Assembly (NCBI GenBank): GCA_964574655.1
Contig: CAZNOH010000001.1
Location: 471,020 to 535,019 of the forward strand
Length of the DNA: 64,000 bases
Reading direction: 5' to 3'
From: an uncultured Candidatus Saccharibacteria bacterium
GTDB lineage: Bacteria; Patescibacteriota; JABMPQ01; JAQVVF01
Shown here: in pieces, positions 14,128 to 64,000 of the stretch
How the letters are laid out: each line of letters opens with the position of its first letter
How positions within the stretch are numbered: position 1 is the stretch's first letter
Notes under the pieces: model-generated
The model's input: only the letters and a program-made list of their open reading frames with translations
Database searches by the model: none
What the model was told of the DNA's origin: nothing
Position numbers and translations under genes: made by a program

Positions 14128-15319
14128 TTTTGTAAATGTTTTCTAAGGCTAAAAGATGTTTTTCAATTGTATAATTATTGATCAAATCTTGATATGCATT
14201 ATTCGTCAGTTTTTGTCTTAATTCTTTATCTTTTATCAACAATTCAATCTTTTCTTTCAAATCATTACTATTGCCTACTTTGAAATATAAACCATTTTGA
14301 TTGTTTTTTATTAACTCCTTCATTCCTCCTATTTCGCTAACTATCAAGGCTGTTTTATTCTTAAATCCTTCATAAATTGTAACTGGTGAATTTTCATACC
14401 AAATTGATGGCACAATAGCTATATCTGCTTTTTGCCATAATTCTTGTTTTTCTTTTCCAGAAATGAAACCATAAAATTTAATTTTCTTATCGTAGCTGAA
14501 ATTGTGTTGCAATTTTTTAAATAGAGGACCATCTCCTGCAATATGCAAAATGACATTTTTATTTTTTAGCTTTGTAAATGCTTCAAGTAAAATATTAATG
14601 CCCTTATGTGTCACTAACTGTCCGAAATAGACAATATTAATATAATTATCCTGAATTTTTTCAGCTAAGTCTAGATTAATGCCAAGTGGCAAGCAAATAT
14701 TTTTTGATTTTTTGAAAAAACCAAGCTGGGTGTGTTTATCGAGAGTGAATTGTGAAGGCGCTAGCACAATTTTTGCAGATTGCGAAAATTTTCTTTTAGA
14801 TTTATAAAAAAAAATTTCGAGCGAATTAAATTTTGAAATTATTTTGTTGTTTCTAAAAAGCATTGCCCATGGACTTAAGAATTGATAGTCGTGTAAAGTA
14901 TGTACTTGTGGAATATTTTGACTTTTTATCGCTGAAAAAATTGATGTAGAAAATCCTGTAACATTATGAGTATGGACTAAATCTGGTTTTTCTTTTTTCA
15001 GAATTTCTTTTATCTGTAAATATGAATGAATATTCCACAAATCAAAAAAATGCCATAAAGGCTTTAAATAAATAGGCTTTTTGTCGGCATCTTTGGAATG
15101 ATAAATATTCAGTGGATAAAAACGGTATATTTTGAGTTTATTATTTATAATTTCTGATTTAGCTTTGAGATCGCTAATGTTTTTAAATGGTTTTGTGGTA
15201 ATCAGAATGACCTGATTGTCAGTTTGCTTTGTTATATATTCAACAATTTTTTCAACATAAATTTCAGCGCCACCTAGCACATATGGTTCATAAAGATTGG
15301 AAATGATAGCAATTTTCAT
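14114..15319 (-). CDS. glycosyltransferase family 4
   Basis: N-terminal MKIAIISNLYEPYVLGGAEIYV and C-terminal GT-B domain. Confidence 0.8.
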   Translation of the reverse strand: MKIAIISNLYEPYVLGGAEIYVEKIVEYITKQTDNQVILITTKPFKNISDLKAKSEIINNKLKIYRFYPLNIYHSKDADKKPIYLKPLWHFFDLWNIHSYLQIKEILKKEKPDLVHTHNVTGFSTSIFSAIKSQNIPQVHTLHDYQFLSPWAMLFRNNKIISKFNSLEIFFYKSKRKFSQSAKIVLAPSQFTLDKHTQLGFFKKSKNICLPLGINLDLAEKIQDNYINIVYFGQLVTHKGINILLEAFTKLKNKNVILHIAGDGPLFKKLQHNFSYDKKIKFYGFISGKEKQELWQKADIAIVPSIWYENSPVTIYEGFKNKTALIVSEIGGMKELIKNNQNGLYFKVGNSNDLKEKIELLIKDKELRQKLTNNAYQDLINNYTIEKHLLALENIYKNAIS

Positions 15320-15321
15320 TA

Positions 15322-16857
15322 TTAGAGCTTATATTGGTCAATTTGGTAGATCTTTATTATTATAGAGTCTTTTTTGTATGTGTCAACCTTTGTTAAGAAA
15401 TCCGCACTATCTAGGTAGTGGTCGAACTTAAAGTCGCACTGAATTGGTATCCAACCTAAAGGTTGGTTGCGATAATAAATGAAATCGATATTGTTTTCTT
15501 TATAAAATTTTTTAGAACTATCAGCATTTGGATGATATAGAACACTATCATTGCATTCGGTACCAATAAAATTATCTTGAGATTGATAGAATAAAAATAC
15601 GAATGGGCCTGGAATATCGCTAAGACCTTTTAAAGTTGGACTTAATAAAATGTTTTTTTGTCCGGGAAATTTATCGTTTAGGTTCATGATAGCTTTATAA
15701 TCCAAATATTTCATGTCAGGAACATAATCTAAATTATTAGCAATGGTTTTAGGAATATAAATAAAAACTGATATTAATATAAAAAGGCTTAGAATAATTT
15801 TTCTATACCTATTTTGGGTTAAAATAAAGGAGAAAAATGAACAATAAATAACTAAAACTAAAGTTAAATCGCGAGAAAATCTTTCAGTTTCAATTCCGTA
15901 CTTCGTTCTTGAGCCAAAGAGCAAGAATAAAAATGCAACTATTAATATAATTGCGGCTATTCTTTTTTCTGGATTTTTATAATATAAATATATTGCTGGA
16001 ATTGAAAATAAGAAAATCAGCCATAAAAATTTGTTTGTATGGCCTATAAATTGGTCAAAAGATTTTGGACCGATTATCGGCACGCCGATTATTGACTGAT
16101 TTTTGTCTAAAGAAATATTTTGATTGCTAATATTTTTGTAAAAAATAGGAGCAAAGTATGAAGTAATAATCTGATATGGATTAATCAAAGCTAATATTGT
16201 AAAAATTAGTATCAGAATTAATGCTTTTTTCTTGATTTCTTTACCTTTGATAAATATTAAAATTCCTATCAAAGAAATAATTATGATAACTGTCGGATAT
16301 AAAAATCCAACGGTATGTAGAATTCCATTGTTAAAATAAAAGATTATGCAAACTAAAAGACAAGAAATTTTATTTTCTTTGAGATATTTATACAGATACA
16401 AAAATATTAAAGGCATAAAGAAAAAAACTGCCAAAACATTCACGACTGTAGCATCTCGCAAATACCATGCAGGATGATAAGAAATTAAGGCCATTAGAAA
16501 TACGGCCAAAAGTGCTGATTTTTCATTAATAAATTTTCGAACTAAGAGGTATAGACTAAGTAAAACAAGACAAGAAATGAACGGGACAATAATGATGAAT
16601 AGTTGGACAATACTTATGCCAGTAACAAAGTGCAACGCGCTAAGAACAATATGAAATGACGTTGGATAATTAATCCCATTGTTATTTCCTTGATCGATAA
16701 TCTGTTGAGTCATCCAAAGATGGCTAGTTGCATCACCACCGCGAGGGTAAATTATTTCGTTGCTAATAATTAAGGGTAAATATTGGATTAGAGCAACGAA
16801 AAAGATGATACAAATTAGGACTATTAAATTTAAATTTTGTTTTATAAATGATTTCAT
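15322..16857 (-). CDS. polytopic membrane protein, putative GT-C-type glycosyltransferase or glycan polymerase
   Basis: 511 aa, more than 10 TM helices, and an acidic first-loop motif IYPRGGDATSHLWMTQQ like GT-C enzymes. ATGA-coupled to the flanking glycosyltransferases. Confidence 0.55.
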   Translation of the reverse strand: MKSFIKQNLNLIVLICIIFFVALIQYLPLIISNEIIYPRGGDATSHLWMTQQIIDQGNNNGINYPTSFHIVLSALHFVTGISIVQLFIIIVPFISCLVLLSLYLLVRKFINEKSALLAVFLMALISYHPAWYLRDATVVNVLAVFFFMPLIFLYLYKYLKENKISCLLVCIIFYFNNGILHTVGFLYPTVIIIISLIGILIFIKGKEIKKKALILILIFTILALINPYQIITSYFAPIFYKNISNQNISLDKNQSIIGVPIIGPKSFDQFIGHTNKFLWLIFLFSIPAIYLYYKNPEKRIAAIILIVAFLFLLFGSRTKYGIETERFSRDLTLVLVIYCSFFSFILTQNRYRKIILSLFILISVFIYIPKTIANNLDYVPDMKYLDYKAIMNLNDKFPGQKNILLSPTLKGLSDIPGPFVFLFYQSQDNFIGTECNDSVLYHPNADSSKKFYKENNIDFIYYRNQPLGWIPIQCDFKFDHYLDSADFLTKVDTYKKDSIIIKIYQIDQYKL

Positions 16858-50814: not shown

Positions 50815-50898
50815 ATATTATTGTTCTTTTAAAATTTTTACTTGTCAACCAGCATCAAAGGTTGGCATCAGAAGTGAAAAACAGGAGAGGAGGAAGAG

Positions 50899-51735
50899 AT
50901 GAAACGGACAAAATTGCTTGCTTTGTCAGCTTTGATTTTTTTGGGACTTGCATCTTGTTCAAAACAAGAAATTGCTGTGGAACAAGTTCGCAAAGATGTT
51001 GAAATTTATTATCAACAACTTTTTGCAAAGTCATTCAGATATGTCTGCACACCGAATGTTTTTTCTGTTGATATTTTAGAAAGATGGACAAAAGATGACA
51101 AAACTGAATTGAAAGTCCGTACTGGTTTGAAATTGCAATGTAGATTAACATTGAATTCTGAAGTTAATGGCGATTTTATGACTTCGCGAATTGAAAGTTC
51201 TTCAAATTTGAAAGTTGGATCCAATTTCTTCCAAGATTGTTTCAAAATGCAATATGAGAAATTCAGCGAAGGATTCAAACTGCAAGGAGAGTTTAATCAG
51301 GATGAAAATTGTCCGTCGTCTGAAGTTTTTGATGCCTATAAAAGGTTGGCTCTAGAAAATCTGCTGAAAGAAACTGCTTTGGCGGCGTGCACTTGCAAAC
51401 AGCCAAATTCTAATTGTACGCATGAAGAAAATATTTGTCGAATTTATGAAGAAAGAGATATCAATGGCGATGGAATTGCGGAAATGGTTTTATCTGATGC
51501 GATAAATCCGAGAAATGGAATTGATTTCGGTTCCACTTGGGCAATTATTAATGGAAGTCCTAAAATGATTTTGCCGGCTACTATTTCTTTGAAAGATTTG
51601 CCAGTATCAGATGGCTTTCCAAGTATTAAAACTTCTGACGAAATAGGTTGCTGCTTAGAAATCATTACCACATATCAATTTGATGTTAGACGAGGAGAAT
51701 ATGTCAAGGTTGGCACTTTTGAACGGAAGATATAA
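50899..51735 (+). CDS. lipoprotein (hypothetical), tandem paralog 1
   Basis: Lipobox LGLASC. Shares LLKETALAACTCK, ERDINGDG and other blocks with the next gene. Confidence 0.7.
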   Translation: MKRTKLLALSALIFLGLASCSKQEIAVEQVRKDVEIYYQQLFAKSFRYVCTPNVFSVDILERWTKDDKTELKVRTGLKLQCRLTLNSEVNGDFMTSRIESSSNLKVGSNFFQDCFKMQYEKFSEGFKLQGEFNQDENCPSSEVFDAYKRLALENLLKETALAACTCKQPNSNCTHEENICRIYEERDINGDGIAEMVLSDAINPRNGIDFGSTWAIINGSPKMILPATISLKDLPVSDGFPSIKTSDEIGCCLEIITTYQFDVRRGEYVKVGTFERKI

Positions 51736-51798: not shown

Positions 51799-51863
51799 AT
51801 AATATTGTTCTTTTACATTTTTACTCCCAAATATATAGGCCAGACAACAGAGGAGGAAGGAAG

Positions 51864-54882: not shown

Positions 54883-54949
54883 TATAGTTGCATTATGTTT
54901 GTAATGTTCTTTTAAAATTTAATTTCCCGCGAGAAAAGAGGAGGAAGGA

Positions 54950-56335
54950 ATGAAAGACAATGCCAGAAAGTTTTCTTTGGCAATTTTTGTGGCGATTTTG
55001 GTTTGTTTTTTGATGCCTTTTTTGGATTTGTCGTGCGGAGAACAAAAAATTGTCAACTTAACTGGATTGGAACTTATTACTGGAAAAACAATTGCAGATT
55101 CAAGTATTTACGGCGTGGAAAATAATCATACTCATCCGCATCTGTTGGTTATTTTAGCTTCTTTATGCTCAATTGCAGGTTTTGTTTTTGTTTATGTGAA
55201 GGGCAAATCAAGGCTTATTTCTTCGGCATTAAGCTTGCTGGGATTTGTTTTTTTACTGAAGTTTAAAATTCTGATGGATGGCAATATTGCTGAAAAAGGC
55301 GATGGCATGATTTTTGCTGACTGGCGATATGGTTTTTGGTTGGCATGCGTTCTATTTATCTTGGCATCTGTTATTTGCTTGGTTGCTTATTATCGGGAAA
55401 AAAGTAAGACAGTTGTTTCTGGCACGATGATTAGTTGTTTTGCTGTTTTTTTTGTTGCTTTGATAGGATATAACTGCAATTCGAATAAAACACCATCTTT
55501 TAGAGAATTAGCGAAATCTGACGCTTCTTGGGATTTACATCCTATTTGGCATCCACAGAAAAACATTGTTATTTTTGAACGCTGGGATGAGAATATTGGC
55601 TGGAATACTTACCAATTGAACATGAATGATTTTGCTATTGCCAGATTTAAGCCTGCAAGCAACTTTGATGATTATAATAGCATTGATTGGTTTTCTGATG
55701 GCAATAGTTTTGTCTTTTGGACTGGCGGAAATGTGAATGCGCCTCCTAAAATTTGGCGTTATGATTCGAATAATCAGGTTTCTGAATTAGCTGACAATGC
55801 TGCTCATCCGTGCTGGATTAATAATTATAAAAGCATTATTTATATGGACACGCAACGCGGTGATTCGATTTGGCTGATGGATGGCAATGGCAATAATAAA
55901 CGCCTTCTAATTAAACCAGGTTCCGCTCCTGATTGCATGGCAGACGGCGAATGGTTTGTTTATAATTCAAGACCGTCAAGAGATGATTTTAGAGGAAATA
56001 TTTATGCTTTTAACATTGCCAGCCAACAGATGATTTCTATCACAAATAGTGATAATGCCAAAAGTGCCAGTTTTTCTTTTGATGGTAAAAAAGTAGTCTA
56101 TGTTAGAATTGTTCTTCCAGAAAAATATGATAGAGATAAAGAAGTAATAATTGAGAGCAGTAAATACCAAATAGTTGTTGTTGATTTTCCAAGCCTAGAA
56201 AATGAAAGAGTCATTTTTGAGAGTTTGGGTATTGTTGAGTGCACTCCAACGATATCTCCTAATAGTAAGCACTTGGCATGGTGCCATAGCGAAGGGGGGC
56301 GTAAATTTAGTCACATACGATTTCTTGAACTTTGA
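54950..56335 (+). CDS. membrane-anchored TolB-like beta-propeller protein
   Basis: Four N-terminal TM helices (about 180 aa), then a WD40/PD40-like repeat pattern (SIDWFSDGNSFVFW, SIIYMDTQRGDSIWLMDGNG, NIYAFNIASQQ, FSFDGKKVVYV). Confidence 0.6.
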   Translation: MKDNARKFSLAIFVAILVCFLMPFLDLSCGEQKIVNLTGLELITGKTIADSSIYGVENNHTHPHLLVILASLCSIAGFVFVYVKGKSRLISSALSLLGFVFLLKFKILMDGNIAEKGDGMIFADWRYGFWLACVLFILASVICLVAYYREKSKTVVSGTMISCFAVFFVALIGYNCNSNKTPSFRELAKSDASWDLHPIWHPQKNIVIFERWDENIGWNTYQLNMNDFAIARFKPASNFDDYNSIDWFSDGNSFVFWTGGNVNAPPKIWRYDSNNQVSELADNAAHPCWINNYKSIIYMDTQRGDSIWLMDGNGNNKRLLIKPGSAPDCMADGEWFVYNSRPSRDDFRGNIYAFNIASQQMISITNSDNAKSASFSFDGKKVVYVRIVLPEKYDRDKEVIIESSKYQIVVVDFPSLENERVIFESLGIVECTPTISPNSKHLAWCHSEGGRKFSHIRFLEL

Positions 56336-56363
56336 ACAGCTTATTTATAAGCTGTTTTTTTAT
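56336..56363 (+). terminator. Rho-independent terminator
   Basis: acagcttat-ttat-aagctgt followed by tttttt. Confidence 0.7.
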
Positions 56364-56374
56364 TAACAATTTAT

Positions 56375-56403
56375 TTGTTGCTTTATTAAAAATGTGCTAT
56401 AAT
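56375..56403 (+). promoter_or_regulatory. promoter: -35 TTGTTG, 17-nt spacer, extended -10 TGcTATAAT
   Basis: ttgttgctttattaaaaatgtgctataat read directly. Confidence 0.5.
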
Positions 56404-56428
56404 TTTATTGTTAAATTTGATTTGAGAT

Positions 56429-56920
56429 ATGAAAACAAAAAAAGAAATTACAATTAATGATTTGGCCAAGTTACTTGAAAAGCTTGGCGAAAAAGTTGAA
56501 AAGTTATCTGTGAAAATGGATACAGGTTTTAAGAAAAATGACGTGCGATTTTTTAGTTTAGAGAGAAAGATGGAGACTGGTTTTAAAAACCAAGAAAAAA
56601 AGTTAGAAGAAAAATTCGACAAAAAAATTTCAGAGCTTGCGTTGATGGTTGCAAAAGGTTTTAAAGAAACTGCATCTAAAGAAGAAGCTGCTACAAAAAT
56701 AGATATAGAAAATTTAAATTTAAAGATTGATAATGTTGAAGAATCTTTGATAAATAAAATTGATTCTGCAAAAGGTGATGTAATTCTGATTATTAGAAAA
56801 TTAGATGAAAAGATAATTGTTTTAGTTGATTTTCTTAAGGGTCATCAAATTTTAAACGATGTTGAATACGAAAAGCTATGCAAAATAAAGGCTTTTCAAA
56901 CTATTGAGCTTAAGTCTTAA
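56429..56920 (+). CDS. K/E-rich coiled-coil protein (hypothetical)
   Basis: 163 aa, heptad-like LEKLGEKVEKLSVKMD..., with no TM or signal peptide. Confidence 0.5.
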   Translation: MKTKKEITINDLAKLLEKLGEKVEKLSVKMDTGFKKNDVRFFSLERKMETGFKNQEKKLEEKFDKKISELALMVAKGFKETASKEEAATKIDIENLNLKIDNVEESLINKIDSAKGDVILIIRKLDEKIIVLVDFLKGHQILNDVEYEKLCKIKAFQTIELKS

Positions 56921-56945
56921 TTTTAAAAATAAATAACACAACAAA

Positions 56946-57704
56946 ATGAGACAAAAAAGATTTTTGGTGTTGTCGCTTGTTTTAGGAAGCGCGTTGTTGA
57001 TAACAACAGCTTTTGCAAGTGCAACATCCGTATGGACAACTGATTCTATGCTAGTAAAGAAAGTAGCAACAGTTGGAACAAATAGCAATAAAGGACAATT
57101 GCTAGTAAAAGGTTTTATCAGAAATCCTGTCAAAGGCAAAAAAGTTTATGTAAAAGATCATTTGAAAGTTCAAGGCAATGTTCAAGTTGGCGGAATTTTG
57201 CAAGGAAACAATATTGTAAGTGCTGACAATCTTGGAACTGGTGTTGTAACTGAAACAAAATTGGGAACTGGCGCGGTAACTGCTGATAAATTAGGAACAG
57301 GCGCTGTAACAACTGATAAATTAGGAACAGGCGCGGTATCTTCTGCAAAAATTGCTGATGACGCTGTAAATGCTGATAAATTAGATTTTTCGATTGATGG
57401 CGTGGTAAAGGCGGCGGCGTATGGAACACAAGCAACTTGCAATAGTACTGCTTTGGCAAGATCTTTTAATAAGTTGGCTTCTAGTAGCGCAACTTGTTCA
57501 CGTACAAGTACTGGTATTTATACTGTAAATTTTAACACGACTATAAGTAGTAGATTTTTTCAGGTTACGCCGTTACACACTTCAGATATTTATCCGGTCA
57601 TTAACTCTTTACCTTCTAGCACAATAGAAATTTATTTTTATGATGCTGCTGGGGCTACTGCCGACTTAACTGATCCAACTGGATTTTATATAACTGTTTA
57701 TTAA
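56946..57704 (+). CDS. secreted surface protein, paralog of 18015..18548, with an inserted KLGTGAVTxD repeat array
   Basis: MRQKRFLVLSLVLGSALLITTAFASATSVWTTDSMLVKKVATVGTNSNKGQLLVKGFIRNPVKGKKV aligns to the 18015 gene. Four tandem (K/N)LGTG(A/V)VT(A/T/E)(D/T) units. Shared C-terminal GFYITVY. Confidence 0.7.
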   Translation: MRQKRFLVLSLVLGSALLITTAFASATSVWTTDSMLVKKVATVGTNSNKGQLLVKGFIRNPVKGKKVYVKDHLKVQGNVQVGGILQGNNIVSADNLGTGVVTETKLGTGAVTADKLGTGAVTTDKLGTGAVSSAKIADDAVNADKLDFSIDGVVKAAAYGTQATCNSTALARSFNKLASSSATCSRTSTGIYTVNFNTTISSRFFQVTPLHTSDIYPVINSLPSSTIEIYFYDAAGATADLTDPTGFYITVY

Positions 57705-57728
57705 AAAGTTAAGTGTTTATTATAGTTC

Positions 57729-57763
57729 TAACTTCCTTGCTAAAATGCAGGGAAGTTTTTTTA
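57729..57763 (+). terminator. Rho-independent terminator
   Basis: aacttccttgc-taaaat-gcagggaagtt followed by ttttttt. Confidence 0.65.
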
Positions 57764-57796
57764 TTGATGGACTTTTTGTAATTTGATTTCTTGTAT

Positions 57797-57821
57797 AAAA
57801 AAACCACAGATAAATCTGTGG
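57797..57821 (-). terminator. Rho-independent terminator for the minus-strand MopE/LamG gene
   Basis: Minus-strand reading ccacagat-tt-atctgtgg followed by ttttttt, ending 16 nt from the stop codon. Confidence 0.7.
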
Positions 57822-57836
57822 TAATAGAAAGTACAA

Positions 57837-60686
57837 CTAGCGTCTCATGATTTCAAAGTAGTGCTGGATTTCAGCGTCGGAAAGTGCCTTGTTGAAGAAG
57901 GAAAATTCGTCGATGGTCATATCGCTTTTTTGACCACCAACGTTCTGTGCACCTAAAAGCATTGCATTTCCAATAATATTTACATACGGGCCATTCCAAA
58001 TGGGCACGCCATCATTATAGACTGTGAAATTTCCGTTTTGATATTTTGCGGCAAACGCGTACAGTTGATTAGCGTTAACGTTTACCATTTGTGCAAATCG
58101 TTCCTGTGACAAATAAAATGTCCACTTAAATCCGTCATCTGTCGAAAGTATCCCGAGTCCAGGCATTCTGTTACGTGAGAAAATCATGTCTCCTGTTTCA
58201 TACGTTCGTACTTTAACAGACACGAAGTATGTGAACTCATTCGCAATGCTGTCCATACTCACACTATCAGCCACCTCGGCGTAGTCGTCAACTCCGTCGA
58301 ACGATGCAGCCTGGCCACAAACTGCATCCGCAGTGAAAGTGGCGCCGTGGTTGACAGCATTGTTGGCATTTGGCGAACCATCATTGAAGTGGTTGTCAAA
58401 CGACAGGTACATGACCAACGACCGGCAGTCTTCATCAACAGCGCCATCGCAGTCATTGTCAACCTGATCGCAGATTTCCACTCCGCAGTTGGTAACCGTA
58501 CATTCACAGCCATCAGTAGGATTAGCATTCACATCGAAGCGGAAGCGGTTGCACTGCAACACGCACTGTCCTGCTACACAACGCGAGCTAGAAGTCCCCT
58601 GATTTCCGCAAACGCGATTGCATTGGCCACAGTTCAATGGATCAACCAAGAGGTCGAAGCCATTGTCTGCAGTACCATCACAATCGTTGTCCAGGCCATC
58701 ACAGATTTCAGCAACTGATGTGATCTGATTCTGGCATTCTCCCCACTCACGGCTCTCCCAGCAGATCTGCGTTCCGATCTGGCATTCGCCGACATCGGTA
58801 CCGCAGTTGCGAGAAACACCTGGTGAGCAACAGCCAATCAGATTTTCGTCAGTTTCAGAATTGCAATTGTTATCCAGACCATCGCAGATTTCATCAGACG
58901 GTCCAGTTGCACCTTCGCACCAGCCCCAAGAGCGGTTGGCCTGGCAAGTGGAAGTTCCCTTCTCACATTCGCCAGTGTCAATTCCGCAATAGGAAAGATC
59001 ACGAGGTTCGCAACAACCTTCCAAATCTTCATCAGTCGAATCGTCGCAATCGTTGTCCAAGCCATCGCAGATTTCATCTGTCGACGGATTGGCAATTGCG
59101 TTGCAACTACTGGTCTGGTCATTAACACATGCAATCACGCCTTCGGCATAACATTCGCCAACGCCGTTAGAGCAAAAATTGCGAGTGTTAAAACCTTCAT
59201 CAGTGTTGTGATCGCAATTGTTATCAAGGCTATCGCAGATTTCGTTGCTCGACTGAACCTCGCCTTCACAGGCAAGCCAGACGCCAGCGAAACAAGACTG
59301 CACGCCCTTCTGACACTCACCGACATCATTGCCACATTCCTGCGTCAATGCTTCGTCGGTTGCGCCATCGCAATCATTGTCCTTGTTGTCGCAAAGCTCG
59401 TCGTGAGACAGGCCAGCAACAGCATTGCAGAACGTTGACTGCTGATCAATGCCACATACCAACTGACCAAGCGACAAGCACGCGCCTACGCCGATCTGGC
59501 ACTCTGCGCCAAGATTGACATAAGCTTCATCAGTGTTGCCGTCGCAGTTGTTATCTTTGGCATCGCATAGTTCAGCCGTGGGCTTCACTTCGTCAGTGCA
59601 TTCACTCCACACACCATCTTGCGAGCAAGTCTTGCGACCCTTTTGGCATTCGCCAACATTGGAGCCACATACGACCTGATCATTTGCATTGCAACATCCA
59701 ACCAAATCCTCATCAGTTGCGCCATCGCAGTCATTGTCCTGCTGGTCGCAAGCTTCTTCGGTTGGCTGAATGGTCTGTGCATTGCAAGTTGCTGAAAGCT
59801 TGTCATCACTGCAAACATAAACACCGCGCGAAATACAGAGACCTTGACCGATCTGGCAGGCACTTTCAAGGTTTACGAAATCCTCGTCAGTGTTACCGTC
59901 ACAGTCATTGTCCAACAAGTCGCAAAGATCTGCAGATGGGTCAACAGCATTTTCACACTGGCCCCAACTACCGTCTTCTTGACAAGTCATTTGACCCTTC
60001 TGGCATTCCCCGACATCATTGCCACATTCCTGAACATCGTTTTGATCGCAACAGCCAACCAATTCTTCATCGATTGTGCCATCGCAATCGTTATCCAGTT
60101 CATCACACTCTTCAGGAATTGCCTGACCAGCGACTGCATTGCAAGTCGTAGTGTTGCCGTCAGCGCTACAAACGTAGACGCCTTCTGCAAAACATTCGCC
60201 CTTGCCAACATTGCAGACCTGATTTAGGTTGTCGAAACCTTCATCAGTCTGATTGTCGCAGTCGTTGTCCTTGCCATCGCAGATTTCAGTGGACGGAATA
60301 CAAGGAATGTCAGCACCTGTATCAGGAGTCGTGTCTGGCTCACTGTCAGGCGAAACATCTTTGCCACCACCTGAGTCTACATCTGGAGTTCCAACTTCAG
60401 CATCAGCTTCGGGGCCAACTTCAGCGTCTGCTTCAGCATCAGGCCCTGCATCAAAGCAATTGGTGCATACGGCCTTGCAAACTGTGTCCTTGTCGGCGTG
60501 AAGCATTTCATCGTTGAGTTCGTTGCTTTCAACACAGATCTTTTTCTCATTCAAGCAAACACAAGTGAACTTTTCAGTACAAAGCGCATTTTCATCACAG
60601 AGATTCTTTTTGTCCATGTCGTCAAAACTCTGCAAACATCCAGAAATTGCCAACGCAAAAAACATAGCCAGCGTTCTCGTTGTCAT
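57837..60686 (-). CDS. lipoprotein with about 12 MopE-like 'CDGxDNDCDGxTDE' Cys-rich repeats and a C-terminal LamG/concanavalin-A-like domain
   Basis: Lipobox ALAISGC. Alternating repeat types (…DNDCDGxTDEgF.NL…C..G.G.C…G..VC and …DNDCDGxxDE.L.GCC…CG..VGECQKG..TC). C-terminal FDGVDDYAEV…KWTFY…NGNFTVYNDG matches the Laminin_G_3 pattern. GC about 50-53% against about 28% for the glycan locus. SD GAGGAGGAAGGAAAATG. Confidence 0.85.
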   Translation of the reverse strand: MTTRTLAMFFALAISGCLQSFDDMDKKNLCDENALCTEKFTCVCLNEKKICVESNELNDEMLHADKDTVCKAVCTNCFDAGPDAEADAEVGPEADAEVGTPDVDSGGGKDVSPDSEPDTTPDTGADIPCIPSTEICDGKDNDCDNQTDEGFDNLNQVCNVGKGECFAEGVYVCSADGNTTTCNAVAGQAIPEECDELDNDCDGTIDEELVGCCDQNDVQECGNDVGECQKGQMTCQEDGSWGQCENAVDPSADLCDLLDNDCDGNTDEDFVNLESACQIGQGLCISRGVYVCSDDKLSATCNAQTIQPTEEACDQQDNDCDGATDEDLVGCCNANDQVVCGSNVGECQKGRKTCSQDGVWSECTDEVKPTAELCDAKDNNCDGNTDEAYVNLGAECQIGVGACLSLGQLVCGIDQQSTFCNAVAGLSHDELCDNKDNDCDGATDEALTQECGNDVGECQKGVQSCFAGVWLACEGEVQSSNEICDSLDNNCDHNTDEGFNTRNFCSNGVGECYAEGVIACVNDQTSSCNAIANPSTDEICDGLDNDCDDSTDEDLEGCCEPRDLSYCGIDTGECEKGTSTCQANRSWGWCEGATGPSDEICDGLDNNCNSETDENLIGCCSPGVSRNCGTDVGECQIGTQICWESREWGECQNQITSVAEICDGLDNDCDGTADNGFDLLVDPLNCGQCNRVCGNQGTSSSRCVAGQCVLQCNRFRFDVNANPTDGCECTVTNCGVEICDQVDNDCDGAVDEDCRSLVMYLSFDNHFNDGSPNANNAVNHGATFTADAVCGQAASFDGVDDYAEVADSVSMDSIANEFTYFVSVKVRTYETGDMIFSRNRMPGLGILSTDDGFKWTFYLSQERFAQMVNVNANQLYAFAAKYQNGNFTVYNDGVPIWNGPYVNIIGNAMLLGAQNVGGQKSDMTIDEFSFFNKALSDAEIQHYFEIMRR

Positions 60687-60795
60687 TTTCCTTCCTCCTC
60701 TTGATGTAAGGTTCGGTCTGTTCAGCCGAATCCTTGGGTTTTCAGTTCAAATTATAGTAGCATATACATAAAATTTTGGCAAGAGAAAATTGTTT

Positions 60796-60824
60796 ATTAT
60801 GGCTTTTTTGACTATTTTTGTCAA
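60796..60824 (-). promoter_or_regulatory. candidate promoter (minus strand -35 TTGACA, 17-nt spacer, -10 CATAAT)
   Basis: Minus-strand reading ttgacaaaaatagtcaaaaaagccataat. Confidence 0.45.
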
Positions 60825-60833
60825 TTTTTTGCA

Positions 60834-60856
60834 TAAAAAAAAGACTCTAAGAGTCT
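60834..60856 (-). terminator. Rho-independent terminator for the minus-strand C-type lectin gene
   Basis: Minus-strand agactc-tta-gagtct followed by tttttttt. Confidence 0.65.
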
Positions 60857-60862
60857 AAATGA

Positions 60863-62146
60863 TTAAAAAAGTTCGTTCCATTCACAGAAAAAAGGACGAG
60901 TCAAGCCGCAGAAAGCATCATTCCAACCGCCATTTGGTGGCAAGTCAATGCGAATTTCTACGCAATCTTCACCGCTTGCGCCAATAGCTTGAGAGTTATT
61001 TGGTTCTCCAGAAGCCCATTCAAGGACATCTGAAATTTCGCCAGATTCCCAGACCCAGGTATTTTCTTGCGCAATATCGTTTAAACCGATCCAGGCGGAA
61101 AAATAGCCTAATTGCAAGGTGTAAAAATATCCGTCTTCAAGCAAATCATTTATTGTAGCAAGATGACTGTTAAATCTTCGGCAATATTGAACTGCTTCAA
61201 TCCAAACAAGCTCTTGGTTGCAATAAGCATAAGTATGATTTTGATATTCCATAATTTGGCAATTCATATCTAAGCATTGGCCTTCTAGACAGATGCCTTG
61301 AGGCTGGCAGGGATTATTTTCATCTGTCTCCCCATCGCAATCATTATCTAGTCCATCGCAAATTTCATCAGTTTTCAGCCATAATTTTTCTTCTGCATCA
61401 CAATTTGAAAGCAAATCACCATCGCAAGCAATCTGGCCTAGAGCTCTACAAACTCCATTTCCAATTTCACAATATTCGCCAATTAGAAAACCGTCATCAA
61501 TTTCTTCATCGCAGTCATTATCTAAGCCATCACAAATATCATGTTCTGGATTCTTGCTATTACATTCTGACCATGTGCCAAAGGCTAAACATGTTTGTCT
61601 GCCAAGTCTGCATTCACCAATATTGCTGTTTCCGCAAATTCTCGTCTCGGTTACTATGCAACAATCTTCAAGATTTTCATCAGTCTCGCCATCACAATCG
61701 TTGTCTAGGCTATCACAGACTTCATCTGTTTTTAGCCAAGACCTTTCTTCAGCATTACAAAACGAATATTCATGAGTCTCACAGAAAAAATGGCCAGTTC
61801 CCGTACAAACTCCTTTTCCATTTTCACAATGTTCGCCTACTTTGAAATTTTCATCAATCTCGCCATCACAATCGTTGTCTTGATTATCACAAATTTCTTT
61901 GACACATTCTATGTTGTTTTCTGTATCTGGTTCATCAGTTTTTTCATCGTTATCGTCCTGATTTCTTGAATCTTCTCGGATTAATACCTCTGGTTGAATT
62001 AATTTTTCACAAATTCCAGAAATACAATAATAGCCATCAACGCAGTCAAAAATTTCAGAGCATTGATTTTTTGCTTCTAATCCTGTTGAATCAAAACTGC
62101 ATCCGCATGCCAAAATCGCTAGACAAAGACATGTTGCTCGTTGCAT
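60863..62146 (-). CDS. lipoprotein with 4 MopE-like Cys-rich repeats and a C-terminal canonical C-type lectin carbohydrate-recognition domain
   Basis: Signal peptide MQRATCLCLAILACGCS. Repeats CDNQDNDCDGEIDE, CDSLDNDCDGETDE, CDGLDNDCDEEIDD, CDGLDNDCDGETDE. CTLD hallmarks YCRRFNSHLATI, WIGLND, WVWESGE, WASGEPNN, EDCVEI, GGWNDAFC, FFCE. Confidence 0.85.
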   Translation of the reverse strand: MQRATCLCLAILACGCSFDSTGLEAKNQCSEIFDCVDGYYCISGICEKLIQPEVLIREDSRNQDDNDEKTDEPDTENNIECVKEICDNQDNDCDGEIDENFKVGEHCENGKGVCTGTGHFFCETHEYSFCNAEERSWLKTDEVCDSLDNDCDGETDENLEDCCIVTETRICGNSNIGECRLGRQTCLAFGTWSECNSKNPEHDICDGLDNDCDEEIDDGFLIGEYCEIGNGVCRALGQIACDGDLLSNCDAEEKLWLKTDEICDGLDNDCDGETDENNPCQPQGICLEGQCLDMNCQIMEYQNHTYAYCNQELVWIEAVQYCRRFNSHLATINDLLEDGYFYTLQLGYFSAWIGLNDIAQENTWVWESGEISDVLEWASGEPNNSQAIGASGEDCVEIRIDLPPNGGWNDAFCGLTRPFFCEWNELF

Positions 62147-62193
62147 TTGTGTCTCCTTGTTTTGAGTGTGCAGGCATTCATTTACCGCTTTAT

Positions 62194-62222
62194 ATTATAT
62201 AACAAATTGCTAGAAATTGCAA
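62194..62222 (-). promoter_or_regulatory. candidate promoter (minus strand -35 TTGCAA, 17-nt spacer, -10 TATAAT)
   Basis: Minus-strand reading ttgcaatttctagcaatttgttatataat. SD AAGGAGACACAAATG follows. Confidence 0.45.
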
Positions 62223-62227
62223 GAGAA

Positions 62228-62253
62228 TAAAAAAAACGCCATAAATAGCGTTT
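62228..62253 (-). terminator. weak Rho-independent terminator overlapping the stop of the 62252 gene
   Basis: Minus-strand aaacgc-tatttatg-gcgttt followed by tttttt. The stem is only 6 bp. Confidence 0.4.
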
Positions 62254-63346
62254 AGAAATAAAGGTTCAATGATACGCCGCTTGGATTCGGAATAATAATC
62301 GCCTGTGGCGATTTGGGATTCTTGTGAATGATTTCGAAATGATCAAGCAAGAAAAGCGTTGCGCCAGTTGCCAAAGCGCCTCCGCCATAAATAAACATGG
62401 TGTTGGCCATGGCAGCTGAAGATTGTGATTCATCTCTGAAAGAAACAGCCTGACGCTGAATATTGGTTCCCTCATAATTGGCTCTGGAAGTATTGGCAGA
62501 AACGCCGAAATACCCACCAGTTCCAACCATTCCAGCTCCAAGACTCATCAATGCAATACCGCTCCATGCATGCCAGTCAAGGCCTTTTTTGATCTTGGGC
62601 TCTGCTGTCTTAACAACTTCAGCAACAGGCTTCAGCTCTTCTGGCCTTACCTCTTCCCCCACTTCTTCCTCGACTGGTGCAGGAGGCGGTGGGATAACTT
62701 CCAATTCTTGTGGCTGAAGACCGAGAAAGGCTTCATCAGCACGCAGACTGGGCATTCGTTCTGCCCAAATCATCGGCGTTTTCCGCAAAATTGCGACTGT
62801 TGCATCTGCAATTTCGGGCACTGTCTTGTCATAAACCTCTTCTGACGCACAAGACTTGCATACCCAAGTCATTTCAATCCTATTGTTGATGGCATCAAAA
62901 AGCGTCAGATCTATGGAAAGCCTTGCCTTGGGCTTGGTCGTTTTCGCACCCTTGACCTTCTTCTTGCCCTTAGCCTTCTGTACTGCTAGCTTACCTTTTT
63001 CCTTGACGATCGTGCCATATAGCATTCTTCCCATTTGCTTGGTAACACAAACGTTTCGGACACATCCTTCAGTGGCAAAACACTGACGGATTTCCTCATT
63101 GTTCTTGATACCAAAGATTTCTTGTCCAGCAAAATTCAATCCAAGGTTTGCCCCTGCAAATTTTGCGATCAAAAGTTCGATAACGGAATCTGAGAGATTC
63201 GGCTCCTGACTTTTGTTGCCCGGAATGACAACAATCGCAAAATCAGGATGTTCAATCTTTTTTTCTCCATCGATAGGTTCTTGAGCGTACGCAATTCTAG
63301 AAAACAAAGTAATCAAAATCAACATTGTAATGTGCGCGGTTCTCAT
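62252..63346 (-). CDS. secreted protein with Lys-rich and Pro/Glu-rich linkers and a Gly-rich hydrophobic C-terminal region ending LNLYF (hypothetical)
   Basis: SD GGAGGGAAGG sits directly before the second Met (MRTAHITMLILITLFSRIAYAQ), so the start is placed at 63346 rather than 63358. GC about 47%. Confidence 0.6.
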   Translation of the reverse strand: MRTAHITMLILITLFSRIAYAQEPIDGEKKIEHPDFAIVVIPGNKSQEPNLSDSVIELLIAKFAGANLGLNFAGQEIFGIKNNEEIRQCFATEGCVRNVCVTKQMGRMLYGTIVKEKGKLAVQKAKGKKKVKGAKTTKPKARLSIDLTLFDAINNRIEMTWVCKSCASEEVYDKTVPEIADATVAILRKTPMIWAERMPSLRADEAFLGLQPQELEVIPPPPAPVEEEVGEEVRPEELKPVAEVVKTAEPKIKKGLDWHAWSGIALMSLGAGMVGTGGYFGVSANTSRANYEGTNIQRQAVSFRDESQSSAAMANTMFIYGGGALATGATLFLLDHFEIIHKNPKSPQAIIIPNPSGVSLNLYF

Positions 63347-63502
63347 CCTTCCCTCCATTGTCCGCCAAAGCTAAGCTACGGCGGGCTGTCTTCTGTGTCG
63401 GAGCACTGTTTTGGCTTCATATTAGTGTAACAAAAGATTATCCACTTGTCAAGTTTCACTATTTGATATTTTTCCTGTATAATATAATATGTATTTTAAT
63501 AT

Positions 63503-64000
63503 ATGAAAATAAATTTAAATTCTTACGCAAAAATCGCGCAGATTGTTTCAGCTGGAATTATAATTATTCTATTGTTTTATGCTGTTTTTTCCTATTTTGG
63601 ACCATTGGGCTCAACAAAGCTTTCAATAGTTTTTAATAAGAATAAACTGCCTATTTATATTACGGATATGACTGGTCTCGAAACTCCTGAAAAAAATTTA
63701 AAGACCGGCCAAACATACAGAAGAGTTTCTGGTTTTGTAGCTCAACTGAAAATCAAGGTTTTTAAAACCTTTAAAAGCTTAAATGTTAAATTAAAATACG
63801 AAAATCAAAATACTAATTTTGTCTTAGCAGCTATTGCTCTAAAAAGTCCTTTTAAATATAGAGATGCTTATAAAAATGCAACTAAAGTTTTGGAGAATAA
63901 ACTTTTTGATAATTTAGATTGGTACAAAATAGCTGATAAAAATCAAAGCAAAATTCTATTTCAAAAAGGTGATGATATCTGTGAAAAAAAAGTTAAGGAA
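63503..64000 (+). CDS. membrane protein, N-terminal part (ORF open to the window end)
   Basis: ATG 63503. MKINLNSYAKIAQIVSAGIIIILLFYAVFSYF TM helix. 166 codons without a stop, running off the window. The track ORF at 63358..63636 is a different, shorter frame. Confidence 0.55.
   Translation, partial: MKINLNSYAKIAQIVSAGIIIILLFYAVFSYFGPLGSTKLSIVFNKNKLPIYITDMTGLETPEKNLKTGQTYRRVSGFVAQLKIKVFKTFKSLNVKLKYENQNTNFVLAAIALKSPFKYRDAYKNATKVLENKLFDNLDWYKIADKNQSKILFQKGDDICEKKVKE

What the first reader, a model, noticed from the sequence alone, without database searches (positions are those of the whole stretch)
57797..63420. Compositional island (about 45-53% GC) that nevertheless carries the host-type expression signals
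Three consecutive minus-strand genes (57837, 60863, 62252) are far more GC-rich than the glycan locus (about 28%) and the intervening genes (about 33-38%). This suggests horizontal acquisition or a chimeric assembly. Against chimerism: each is flanked by the same kind of short hairpin+T-run terminators and TTGACA/TATAAT promoters as the AT-rich genes. The 57837 gene also uses the same unusually long SD (GAGGAGGAAGGAAAATG) seen upstream of the AT-rich lipoprotein genes at 50899, 51864 and 54950. The intergenic DNA within the island is AT-rich like the host. The middle gene (60863) is only about 40% GC and uses host-like GAT/TGT codons, as if more ameliorated. Together this looks like a staged acquisition and domestication of adhesin-like genes rather than a single recent insertion.
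Basis: seen in the sequence. Interest (0 to 1): 0.6.

Follow-up and report, generated by a model that had tools for sequence, protein, structure and literature searches.

The report
Old GC-rich adhesin cassette in Patescibacteria
Two GC-rich surface-protein genes, with a third of ordinary composition between them, form an old, inherited adhesin-like cluster in a tiny AT-rich Patescibacteria genome. It is not a recent insertion or an assembly error, and its foreign-looking codon usage is eroding more slowly than neutral decay predicts.

Summary
g1 (57837-60686) has GC 0.485 and GC3 0.478, and g3 (62252-63358) has GC 0.454 and GC3 0.434. Forty-eight background genes have GC3 0.242±0.035. g2 (60863-62146) has host-like GC3 (0.271). 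The spacers are AT-rich and carry host-type promoters, terminators and Shine-Dalgarno sites.

The cassette g3-g2-g1 sits at the same syntenic site in five Patescibacteria lineages, down to about 50% amino-acid identity. Every lineage shows the same per-gene pattern: g1 and g3 GC-rich, g2 host-like. g2 is ancestral and co-inherited. It was deleted in two lineages, and one of them keeps a remnant.

Independent assemblies reproduce the borders, so this is not a chimera.

g1 is a lipoprotein with 11 MopE-type cysteine repeats and a LamG tip that is hypervariable between strains. g2 has 4 such repeats and an EPN/WND C-type lectin domain. g3 is a membrane protein of unknown family.

A foreign, GC-rich origin is likely. 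Similar modules occur in a 67% GC contig and as GC3 0.83 islands in other Patescibacteria.

Substitution models reject neutral amelioration at flank rates (p≈1e-10) and place the genes' own equilibrium GC3 near 0.36-0.45. Recent changes still lose GC (66:38), but less than the neutral expectation.

The parts
57837..60686 (-). g1: 949-aa lipoprotein made of a stalk of 11 MopE-type Cys repeats and a C-terminal LamG domain. GC 0.485, GC3 0.478.
   Evidence: PF11617 scores 134 bits (cut-off 27) and PF13385 scores 44 bits (cut-off 27.6). The protein has 87 Cys and 11 CDxxDNDCD cores.
60636..60686 (-). g1 lipoprotein signal peptide with lipobox (…LAISG-C17).
   Evidence: Read from the translation. 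No signal-peptide predictor was run.
58422..60302 (-). g1 Cys-repeat stalk (aa 129-755), the GC-richest part (GC about 0.50, GC3 about 0.49). Copies are 60-79% identical to the reference copy at DNA level over the 70-72 nt repeat cores, so there has been no recent homogenisation.
57864..58298 (-). g1 LamG/ConA-like tip (aa 797-941). Identity across the last ~180-190 alignment columns (the LamG tip) falls to 0.61-0.62 and then 0.33-0.41 between strains that are 93-100% identical over the first 800 alignment columns. GC3 is 0.37-0.46 in all alleles.
57803..57822 (-). Intrinsic terminator-like hairpin plus T-run after g1.
60691..60700 (-). Extended Shine-Dalgarno GAGGAGGAAG of g1. The same sequence precedes the lipoprotein genes at 50899, 51864 and 54950.
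60710..60732 (-). Hairpin in the g1 5' UTR, present with sequence changes in the other lineages.
   Evidence: No covariation test was run.
60754..60824 (-). Two tandem promoter-like elements upstream of g1 (TTGACA-17-CATAAT and TTGCCA-17-TACTAT with TG). Blocks of invariant bases are shared by all five lineages.
60863..62146 (-). g2: 427-aa lipoprotein with 4 MopE-type repeats and a C-terminal C-type lectin domain. GC 0.386, GC3 0.271 (host-like).
60881..61207 (-). g2 C-type lectin domain (aa 314-422) with EPN (nt 60998-61006) and WND (nt 60917-60925) motifs.
   Evidence: PF00059 scores 55.9 bits, cut-off 22.6; mannose receptor C-type 2, E=3e-21.
60842..60856 (-). Terminator-like hairpin after g2. 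A copy survives in lineage A, where g2 is deleted.
62194..62222 (-). Promoter-like site of g2 (TTGCAA-17-TATAAT).
62252..63358 (-). g3: 368-aa protein (probably 364 aa, starting at 63346). It has a signal peptide, an α/β N-domain, a Pro/Glu/Lys linker, a helical hairpin and a C-terminal …LNLYF. No Pfam family matches. GC 0.454, GC3 0.434.
62234..62253 (-). Terminator-like hairpin after g3.
63424..63452 (-). Promoter-like site of g3 (TTGACA-17-TACACT with TG).

Best explanation
The region is a vertically inherited surface-adhesin cassette, g3-g2-g1, of an AT-rich Patescibacteria clade.

Gene products:
- g1 is a lipoprotein with a stalk of 11 cysteine-rich, MopE-type repeats that presents a LamG (lectin-like) tip. 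The tip is exchanged between strains.
- g2 is a shorter paralogue with an EPN-type C-type lectin head.
- g3 is a membrane-anchored partner of unknown family.
- Inferred: the three proteins bind glycans on another cell.

Composition:
- The GC-rich codon usage of g1 and g3 is most likely inherited from an ancient acquisition from a GC-richer bacterium of the Myxococcota type. The acquired unit would have been a 'g3-like membrane protein plus Cys-rich lectin lipoprotein' module. The acquisition predates the split of all five sampled lineages.
- Since then the non-coding signals have been host-type and conserved.
- The coding sequences are ameliorating only slowly, because GC-ending codons in these two genes are under constraint. 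They are lost at roughly half the flank rate, and the genes' own equilibrium GC3 is about 0.36-0.45, against 0.22 for the host.

What is shown and what is inferred:
- Shown: the composition, the synteny, the age of the cassette, the deletion of g2, the domain content, the rejection of neutral flank-rate decay, and the tip hypervariability.
- Inferred: the foreign donor, the nature of the constraint, and the adhesin function.
For: Age and inheritance:
- The same locus, with the same flanking genes (epimerase, S8 peptidase, and the 250-aa and 545-aa genes), occurs in five lineages: W (the window), A/B, C, D and E.
- g1 identity is 66-69% among W, A and C and 50% to E, in parallel with the flanking genes.
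- The per-gene pattern holds in every lineage. g1 GC3 is 0.42-0.48, g3 GC3 is 0.35-0.43, g2 GC3 is 0.26-0.33 and flank GC3 is 0.13-0.34.
- g2 is ancestral and was deleted in A/B, which keep a remnant.
- The g1 promoter region is conserved.

Foreign origin:
- The nearest non-orthologous homologues of g1 and g2 are MopE-related proteins, mostly labelled Myxococcota or 'Deltaproteobacteria'.
- A g3-like C-terminal module lies next to a Cys-motif lipoprotein in the 67% GC contig L008. It also lies next to a GC3 0.83 MopE gene in a Magasanikbacteria MAG.
- Other Patescibacteria carry MopE islands at GC3 0.83 against host values of 0.35-0.52 (L015, L016). One carries a host-like MopE+LamG gene (L017). 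Together these form a gradient of amelioration.

Constraint:
- With flank substitution probabilities and a free ancestral GC, the three-lineage pattern of g1 is rejected (2ΔlnL=46, p≈1e-10). G/C-ending codons are kept in all three lineages at 115 sites, against 66 expected.
- In the five-taxon model, equilibrium GC3 is 0.45 (CI about 0.28-0.63) and stationarity is not rejected. An equilibrium of 0.22 is rejected at p≈0.01, with or without gamma-distributed rates, and would need an ancestral GC3 of 0.87-0.96.
- Among the close strains A, B and D, synonymous changes run 66 GC→AT to 38 AT→GC. That is more than 1:1 (p=0.008) but less than the neutral expectation of 0.76 (p=0.004), and implies an equilibrium near 0.36.
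- At Lys/Gln sites conserved in W, A and C, the G-ending codon is kept in all three at 21 of 35 sites, against 5 of 89 in the flanks.

Function:
- Pfam and PDB matches, and the EPN/WND motifs.
- The LamG tip is hypervariable.
- The surrounding DNA encodes lipoproteins, an S8 protease, an fn3 protein and a large glycan locus.
Against: - No donor is identified. The best non-orthologous hits are only 31-40% identical, so the transfer is inferred from composition and family distribution and not from a phylogeny.
- There are no mobility genes, tRNAs or flanking repeats.
- The models are two-state, use 262-449 sites and assume one rate process per gene. The tests that allow free branch lengths reach only p≈0.01.
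- Lineage E has a weaker codon dialect, and g3 has lower GC3 in C and E. Both fit plain decay.
- The ancestral GC3 needed by pure decay (0.87) matches the 'fresh' islands (0.83), which makes that rival less implausible.
- The reason for a constraint on synonymous sites is unknown. It does not act on the paralogue g2 or on the L017 gene.
- Only about 130 kb of these genomes was seen, so there is no genome-wide GC distribution.
- No expression or binding data exist.
Confidence: 0.55

Rival explanations
1. Pure neutral amelioration. A cassette with GC3 of at least 0.87 entered the common ancestor of the clade and has since decayed towards the host value under host mutation bias alone, with no constraint on synonymous sites.
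For: - There is a gradient of MopE loci in Patescibacteria: GC3 0.83 in L015 and L016, 0.42-0.49 here, and 0.33 (host-like) in L017.
- The ancestral GC3 fitted under a host equilibrium is 0.87, close to that of the fresh islands.
- Recent changes show a net loss of GC, 66:38.
- On the A and B branches alone the counts are 30:15, which does not differ from the neutral 0.76 (p=0.16).
- Lineage E has a weaker dialect.
Against: - Decay at flank rates is rejected at p≈1e-10.
- An equilibrium of 0.22 is rejected at p≈0.01-0.013 even with free branch lengths and gamma-distributed rates.
- All recent singletons together differ from the neutral 0.76 (p=0.004).
- g2, a paralogue resident at the locus for the same time, is host-like.
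- AAG and CAG are retained while GAG is not.
Confidence: 0.25
2. A stable gene-specific equilibrium with no foreign origin. g1 and g3 are native genes whose GC-rich codon usage is held indefinitely, either by selection on codons or mRNA or by GC-biased gene conversion at recombining adhesin genes.
For: - Stationarity is not rejected and the fitted equilibrium GC3 is 0.45.
- GC3 lies in a narrow band, 0.42-0.50, in five lineages. A second MopE gene elsewhere in the C genome has GC3 0.49 (L012). All the divergent LamG alleles have GC3 0.37-0.46.
- Recombination does occur at the tip.
Against: - Recent changes are significantly GC-losing.
- A regional process such as biased gene conversion should also raise g2 and the spacers, and these are host-like.
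- The MopE+LamG gene in L017, and g2 itself, show that the family can be encoded with host codons.
- Ribosomal protein L19 has GC3 0.15, so GC-ending codons are not the host's 'optimal' codons.
- The family is centred on GC-rich phyla.
Confidence: 0.12
3. One reading: a staged, fairly recent acquisition in which g2 arrived earlier, or has ameliorated more, than g1 and g3.
For: g2 has host-like GC3 and host-like GAT/TGT usage, while g1 and g3 do not.
Against: - The cassette lies at the same site in five lineages.
- g2 divergence tracks g1 divergence.
- The same high-low-high pattern is seen in W, D and E.
- g2 is being lost, not gained.
- GC-rich genes flank g2 on both sides, which would need two separate insertions.
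Confidence: 0.03
4. Assembly chimera or binning error that joins DNA of a GC-richer organism to an AT-rich genome.
For: The GC content changes abruptly at 57.8 and 63.4 kb.
Against: - An independent assembly (L004) is 100% identical across the 63.4 kb border and the g3/g2 junction.
- The same junctions occur in NCBI, JGI, ENA and Logan assemblies of four other lineages.
- The GC shift stops at every stop and start codon, and the spacers are host-like.
Confidence: 0.01

Closest known systems
MopE-related / 'putative metal-binding motif' (PF11617) repeat proteins, which among the named hits here come mostly from Myxococcota
   Same: g1 and g2 carry 11 and 4 CDxxDNDCDxxxDE cores set in Cys-rich modules of about 58-61 aa. 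They score far above the Pfam cut-off. NCBI already labels the lineage C orthologue (P0007, 69% identical over 83% of g1) 'MopE-related protein'. Architectures that combine these repeats with Lectin_C or LamG also exist in Myxococcota.
   Different: The host here is a roughly 0.65 Mb, 31% GC Patescibacteria genome. The proteins are lipoproteins with a strain-variable LamG tip. Nothing links them to copper binding as in Methylococcus MopE, and no solved structure matches g1 by sequence.
Animal-type C-type lectin carbohydrate-recognition domains (for example the mannose receptor and DC-SIGN)
   Same: The g2 C-terminal domain matches PF00059 and PDB lectin domains (E=3e-21). It has the EPN and WND motifs that mark Ca2+-dependent binding of mannose, GlcNAc or fucose-type sugars. 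That rule for the motifs is textbook knowledge.
   Different: The domain is bacterial, is fused to MopE repeats behind a lipobox, and has not been tested for binding.
Classical horizontally acquired genomic islands and their amelioration (Lawrence and Ochman 1997, cited in PMC12455944)
   Same: Composition and codon usage are atypical and confined to a few adjacent genes that encode surface proteins. Recent changes show a net loss of GC.
   Different: There is no integrase, tRNA or flanking repeat. The cassette is present in every relative sampled. It is older than near-saturating synonymous divergence. Decay is slower than the neutral model predicts, and a host-like gene sits in the middle.
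Targets of diversity-generating retroelements with a C-type-lectin fold, common in CPR bacteria (PMC11661182)
   Same: Both are ligand-binding surface proteins with a variable C-terminal domain in CPR bacteria.
   Different: There is no template/variable repeat pair, and no reverse-transcriptase domain among the island and neighbouring proteins that were scanned; the rest of the window was not scanned. The variable part is a whole LamG domain at 33-62% identity, not adenine-specific changes in a short region. The g2 domain is a classical PF00059 lectin domain and not the FGE-sulfatase-like fold.

Membership tests
PF11617 MopE-type repeat proteins | Repeated Cys-rich motif scoring above the Pfam gathering threshold | tested here: met
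   g1 scores 134.2 bits and g2 scores 51.5 bits against a cut-off of 27. There are 11 and 4 CDxxDNDCD cores.
PF11617 MopE-type repeat proteins | Metal (copper or calcium) binding by the motif | not testable with these tools
   No solved structure matches g1 by sequence. Biochemistry is needed.
C-type lectin domain (PF00059) | Domain match above threshold and similarity to solved lectin domains | tested here: met
   55.9 bits against 22.6. There are 139 PDB hits, the best at E=3e-21.
C-type lectin domain (PF00059) | Ca2+/sugar-binding EPN (or QPD) and WND motifs | tested here: met
   EPN at aa 381-383 and WND at aa 408-410.
C-type lectin domain (PF00059) | Carbohydrate binding shown experimentally | not testable with these tools
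   Needs a glycan array with recombinant protein.
LamG / concanavalin A-like lectin (PF13385) | Domain match above threshold | tested here: met
   g1 aa 797-941 score 44.2 bits against 27.6.
Bacterial lipoproteins | Signal peptide ending in a lipobox cysteine | tested here: met
   g1 …LAISG-C17 and g2 …AILAC-G-C16, read from the translations. No dedicated predictor was run.
Horizontally acquired genomic island | Atypical base composition and codon usage | tested here: met
   g1 and g3 have GC3 z-scores of 6.7 and 5.4 and a distinct codon dialect. g2 does not.
Horizontally acquired genomic island | Mobility hallmarks: integrase or transposase, tRNA target, flanking direct repeats | tested here: not met
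   The window has no tRNA, the island has no flanking repeats, and the neighbouring genes encode surface proteins.
Horizontally acquired genomic island | Patchy presence among close relatives (empty site in some) | tested here: not met
   g3 and g1 are present at the same site in all five related lineages. Only g2 varies, and it does so by deletion.
Horizontally acquired genomic island | Gene phylogeny that conflicts with the host phylogeny, or an identified donor | tested here: inconclusive
   Within the clade, g1 distances parallel flank distances. Outside it, the best hits are 31-40% identical and mostly from GC-rich phyla. No tree was built because the proteins are repetitive.
Diversity-generating retroelement target | Nearby reverse transcriptase and a template/variable repeat pair with adenine-specific differences | tested here: not met
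   There is no such repeat pair in 56300-64000, and no reverse-transcriptase domain among the proteins that were scanned, i.e. the island genes and their neighbours from about 48.5 kb onwards. The rest of the window was not scanned for domains.

The most novel reading that the evidence does not exclude
Particular surface-protein genes of AT-rich Patescibacteria are held, over very long times, at a synonymous GC content about twice the genomic value by a gene-specific force. That force could be selection on codon or mRNA composition, or a recombination-linked bias at adhesin genes. On this reading, a 'compositional island' here is a stable property of the gene and not a fading trace of transfer, and a paralogue lying between the two genes escapes the force.
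Probability: 0.3. Interest if true: 0.6.

Novelty: new member of a known kind. Interest (0 to 1): 0.4.

Why it matters
How Patescibacteria recognise and bind their host cells is largely unknown (abstracts of PMC12206443 and PMC10633639). This conserved cassette offers concrete candidates: an EPN-type C-type lectin, and a LamG tip on a cysteine-repeat stalk that is swapped between near-identical strains.

For genome evolution, it is a datable case of foreign-looking codon usage that has outlasted near-saturating synonymous divergence and decays more slowly than the neutral amelioration model predicts. A co-resident paralogue of host-like composition serves as an internal control.

There is also a practical point. 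Gene callers trained on the AT-rich genome fragment these GC-rich genes in public MAG annotations, so the family is probably under-counted.

Tried and rejected
- Distant-outgroup polarisation. I polarised substitutions by parsimony with distant outgroups and with a three-lineage majority rule. The flank control gave a biased 65:173, so I dropped these counts and used likelihood models and a close-strain test.
- Exact look-up. Looking up g1 and P0004 as exact products found nothing on record. The window's own contig could therefore not be extended.
- Searches for more relatives. The 9-sequence g3 alignment was too divergent to scan with. The genome-contig scan returned only the MAG already known. 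The metagenome scan returned two loci.
- Family searches. NCBIfam had no hit for g1, g2 or g3, and Pfam had none for g3 or its relatives. PDB had no sequence hit for g1.
- g3 structure. The AlphaFold model is of low confidence (pLDDT 63). Only a weak resemblance of the N-domain to PelC and the TolB N-domain was found (E≈1e-3), and I did not use it for function.
- RNA elements. Rfam and tRNA scans were empty.
- Concerted evolution or gene conversion among the g1 repeats as the cause of high GC. Rejected, because the copies are only 60-79% identical and g3 has no repeats.
- Translational selection for high expression. Rejected, because rpL19 in a sister genome has GC3 0.15.
- An antisense gene inside g1. 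Rejected, because the antisense ORFs differ in length and position between lineages, as expected in GC-rich DNA.
- A diversity-generating retroelement. Rejected.
- MopE genes being intrinsically GC-rich in Patescibacteria. Rejected on the evidence of L017 and g2.

Full report
**1. Observation**

The window averages 31.8% GC. Forty-eight background genes have GC 0.310±0.031 and GC3 0.242±0.035, with a maximum GC3 of 0.305. The three genes of the finding are all on the minus strand.

| Gene | Coordinates | GC | GC3 | GC3 z-score |
|---|---|---|---|---|
| g1 | 57837-60686 | 0.485 | 0.478 | 6.7 |
| g2 | 60863-62146 | 0.386 | 0.271 | 0.8 |
| g3 | 62252-63358 | 0.454 | 0.434 | 5.4 |

- g2's excess GC lies in codon positions 1 and 2, so it reflects amino-acid composition only.
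- The four spacers have GC 0.265-0.324.
- Each gene has its own promoter-like site and its own hairpin-plus-T-run terminator.
- GAGGAGGAAG occurs four times in 64 kb, with none expected by chance. Each copy lies directly before a start codon: g1 and the lipoprotein genes at 50899, 51864 and 54950.
One caveat is that g2 is not compositionally foreign at synonymous sites.

**2. Gene products**

- g1 (949 aa) has a lipobox, an N-terminal Cys motif and an acidic spacer. It then has 11 MopE-type repeats (PF11617, 134 bits; 87 Cys) and a C-terminal LamG_3 domain.
- g2 (427 aa) has a lipobox, the same kind of N-terminal Cys motif and 4 repeats. It ends in a classical C-type lectin domain (PF00059). 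Its best PDB match is mannose receptor C-type 2 (E=3e-21), and it carries EPN and WND motifs.
- The repeat regions of g1 and g2 are 43-44% identical in the three best local alignments, so the two genes are paralogues.
- g3 has a signal peptide and an α/β domain, then a Pro/Glu/Lys linker, a long helical hairpin and a C-terminal …LNLYF. It has no Pfam or NCBIfam family.
- An exhaustive profile search found only six full-length relatives of g3 below E=1e-28. About 110 further proteins match only the C-terminal module.
- The neighbouring genes encode several lipoproteins, an S8 protease and an fn3 protein, and a large glycan locus lies beyond them.

**3. Organism and relatives**

The closest relatives of all three proteins come from MAGs that NCBI labels 'Patescibacteria group bacterium'. 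I found orthologous, syntenic loci in four further lineages.

| Lineage | Loci | Source |
|---|---|---|
| W | the window | NCBI contig of 654 kb (P0004 and P0242 are 100% identical) |
| A | L001, L002, L006 | GCA_028699085.1 |
| B | L003 | 96% nt identity to A |
| C | L005, L007 | GCA_041662665.1 |
| D | L009, L010 | Logan assemblies |
| E | L011 | ENA assembly |

These loci came. g1 is 66-69% identical among W, A and C and about 50% identical to E. The flanking genes diverge in parallel.

The per-gene composition is the same in every lineage:

| Gene set | GC3 range |
|---|---|
| g1 | 0.42-0.48 |
| g3 | 0.35-0.43 |
| g2 (where present) | 0.26-0.33 |
| flanks | 0.13-0.34 |

Logan contig L004, from another run, is 100% identical to window 61892-63785. 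A chimera is therefore excluded for practical purposes.

**4. History of g2**

- g2 is present in W, D and E and absent in A, B and C.
- D is sister to A and B, with g3 99% and g1 87% identical. Even so, A still carries the last codons and the terminator of g2 between g3 and g1. g2 was therefore deleted there.
- g2 identity is 65% for W-D and 45% for W-E. The g1 values are 66% and 50%.
- The three-gene cassette is therefore ancestral to the clade. This contradicts 'staged acquisition with the middle gene more ameliorated'. All three genes are equally old at the locus, and their different compositions are stable, gene-specific traits.

**5. Why g1 and g3 are GC-rich**

*Evidence for a foreign origin*
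- A foreign origin is plausible but not proven.
- Outside the clade, the best hits are MopE-related proteins at 31-40% identity. Of those that carry a name, most come from Myxococcota or 'Deltaproteobacteria'.
- The g3-like C-terminal module lies next to a lipoprotein with a g1-like N-terminal Cys motif in the 67% GC contig L008. It also lies next to a MopE gene in a Magasanikbacteria MAG.
- Two other Patescibacteria MAGs hold MopE genes at GC3 0.83 against flanks of 0.35-0.52. A third holds a MopE+LamG gene of host-like composition.
- A second MopE gene in the C genome has GC3 0.49 against flanks mostly 0.15-0.29.

*Is plain amelioration enough?*
- Parsimony with distant outgroups proved unreliable. 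The flank control gave 65:173.
- I therefore used a two-state likelihood model on synonymous third positions.
- With substitution probabilities taken from the flanking genes and a free ancestral GC, the three-lineage pattern of g1 is rejected (2ΔlnL=46.2, p≈1e-10). G/C-ending codons are kept in all three lineages at 115 sites against 66 expected.
- With free rates, the equilibrium GC3 is 0.41-0.44.
- On five taxa it is 0.45 (CI about 0.28-0.63) and stationarity is not rejected. The host value of 0.22 is rejected at p≈0.01 and would need an ancestral GC3 of 0.87-0.96. Gamma-distributed rates do not change this.
- Between E and the others, the G/C-versus-A/T state of synonymous sites is randomised in g1 and about 91% saturated in the flanks.

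*The close-strain test*
- Strains A, B and D are close enough for parsimony to be safe.
- Synonymous singletons run 66 GC→AT to 38 AT→GC. GC is therefore still being lost (p=0.008 against 1:1).
- The loss is less than the 0.76 expected from host bias (p=0.004). The implied equilibrium is near 0.36.

*Codon detail*
- AAG and CAG make up 0.67-0.85 of Lys and Gln codons in g1 of W, A, C and D, and 1.0 in the second MopE gene. GAG stays at 0.20-0.26.
- At Lys/Gln sites conserved in W, A and C, the G-ending codon is kept in all three at 21 of 35 sites, against 5 of 89 in the flanks.

*Conclusion*
- The cassette was acquired long ago, the non-coding DNA has been fully domesticated, and amelioration of the coding sequence is slowed by a constraint on synonymous sites.
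- The nature of that constraint is unknown.
- A regional process such as biased gene conversion is unlikely, because g2 and the spacers are host-like.
- Selection for high-expression codons is unlikely, because rpL19 in a sister genome has GC3 0.15.

**6. Other findings**

- Among A, B and D, g1 is 93-100% identical over the first 800 alignment columns. Identity falls to 33-62% over the LamG domain.
- The ligand-binding tip is therefore exchanged between strains, as expected for a receptor-binding protein under diversifying selection. All the tip alleles keep GC3 0.37-0.46.
- The g1 promoter region has two tandem promoter-like elements and a 5' UTR hairpin. Blocks of it are invariant across all five lineages.
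- Public annotations fragment these genes, as described under 'noticed in passing'.

**7. Verdict**

- The genes belong to known families: MopE-related repeats, the C-type lectin domain and LamG.
- The compositional anomaly is a known kind of feature, a horizontally derived island. This one is unusually old, syntenic and slow to decay.
- Interest is moderate (0.4). The region supplies testable adhesin candidates for Patescibacteria and a clean natural case for studying retarded amelioration. It does not reveal a new molecular system.

Noticed in passing
L002:7470-7932, L003:4830-5293 and L009:3860-4320 (orthologues of window 57837-58298): The LamG domain of g1 is hypervariable between near-identical strains. 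Identity is 33-62% there, against 93-100% over the first 800 alignment columns, and the boundary at the domain start is sharp. This looks like allelic replacement of the ligand-binding tip.
   Followed up: partly
L002:4816-4900, compared with L010:663-1860: Lineage A lacks g2 but keeps its last codons and its terminator between g3 and g1. Its sister strain D (g3 99% identical) still has g2. This is a recent clean deletion of one transcription unit.
   Followed up: yes
window 50887-50896, 51850-51859, 54938-54947 and 60691-60700: The extended Shine-Dalgarno GAGGAGGAAG occurs only four times in 64 kb, each time before a lipoprotein gene. This may mark a translationally co-regulated set of surface proteins.
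   Followed up: partly
window 60700-60830, with L002, L010, L005, L007 and L011 (alignment A4): The region upstream of g1 has two tandem promoter-like elements and a 5' UTR hairpin. Blocks of bases are invariant across all five lineages, so the non-coding DNA is better conserved than many codons.
   Followed up: partly
L001:11291-14239 and L005:9416-12373: Public gene calls fragment the GC-rich g1 orthologues. One is called as a 488-aa product plus a spurious 319-aa antisense ORF. The other is called as 790 aa although the intact ORF is 985 aa. The likely cause is that the callers were trained on the AT-rich genome.
   Followed up: yes
L015:5844-11282 and 14878-15642; L016:6897-11403: Two unrelated Patescibacteria MAGs carry MopE-gene clusters at GC3 0.61-0.83 inside genomes of GC3 0.35-0.52. 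These look like younger versions of the same kind of island. In L016 the gene next to the MopE gene has the g3-like C-terminal module.
   Followed up: partly
L008:410-1824: A 67% GC metagenome contig encodes a TPR protein with the g3-like C-terminal module. It is followed by a lipoprotein whose N-terminal Cys motif resembles those of g1 and g2. This is a possible GC-rich counterpart of the g3+g1 pair.
   Followed up: partly
L012:10001-11716: The C genome holds a second MopE gene (571 aa) at another locus, near rplS and gyrA. It has GC 0.48 and GC3 0.49, uses 100% AAG and CAG, and sits among flanks of GC3 mostly 0.15-0.29. A neighbouring 638-aa gene has GC3 0.36.
   Followed up: partly
window 57228-57377 (in the gene at 56946-57704): The 252-aa secreted protein next to g1 contains tandem 30-nt (10-aa) repeats of the form LGTGAVTxDK. 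The gene is conserved in all lineages, at 51-65% identity to the window copy.
   Followed up: no
window 62252-63358, L005:8152-9177 and L011:8707-9843: g3 evolves much faster than its neighbours. It is 26-34% identical between W, C and E, where g1 is 50-69% identical. Its conserved Cys residues and its C-terminal …L.LSF ending are nevertheless kept.
   Followed up: partly
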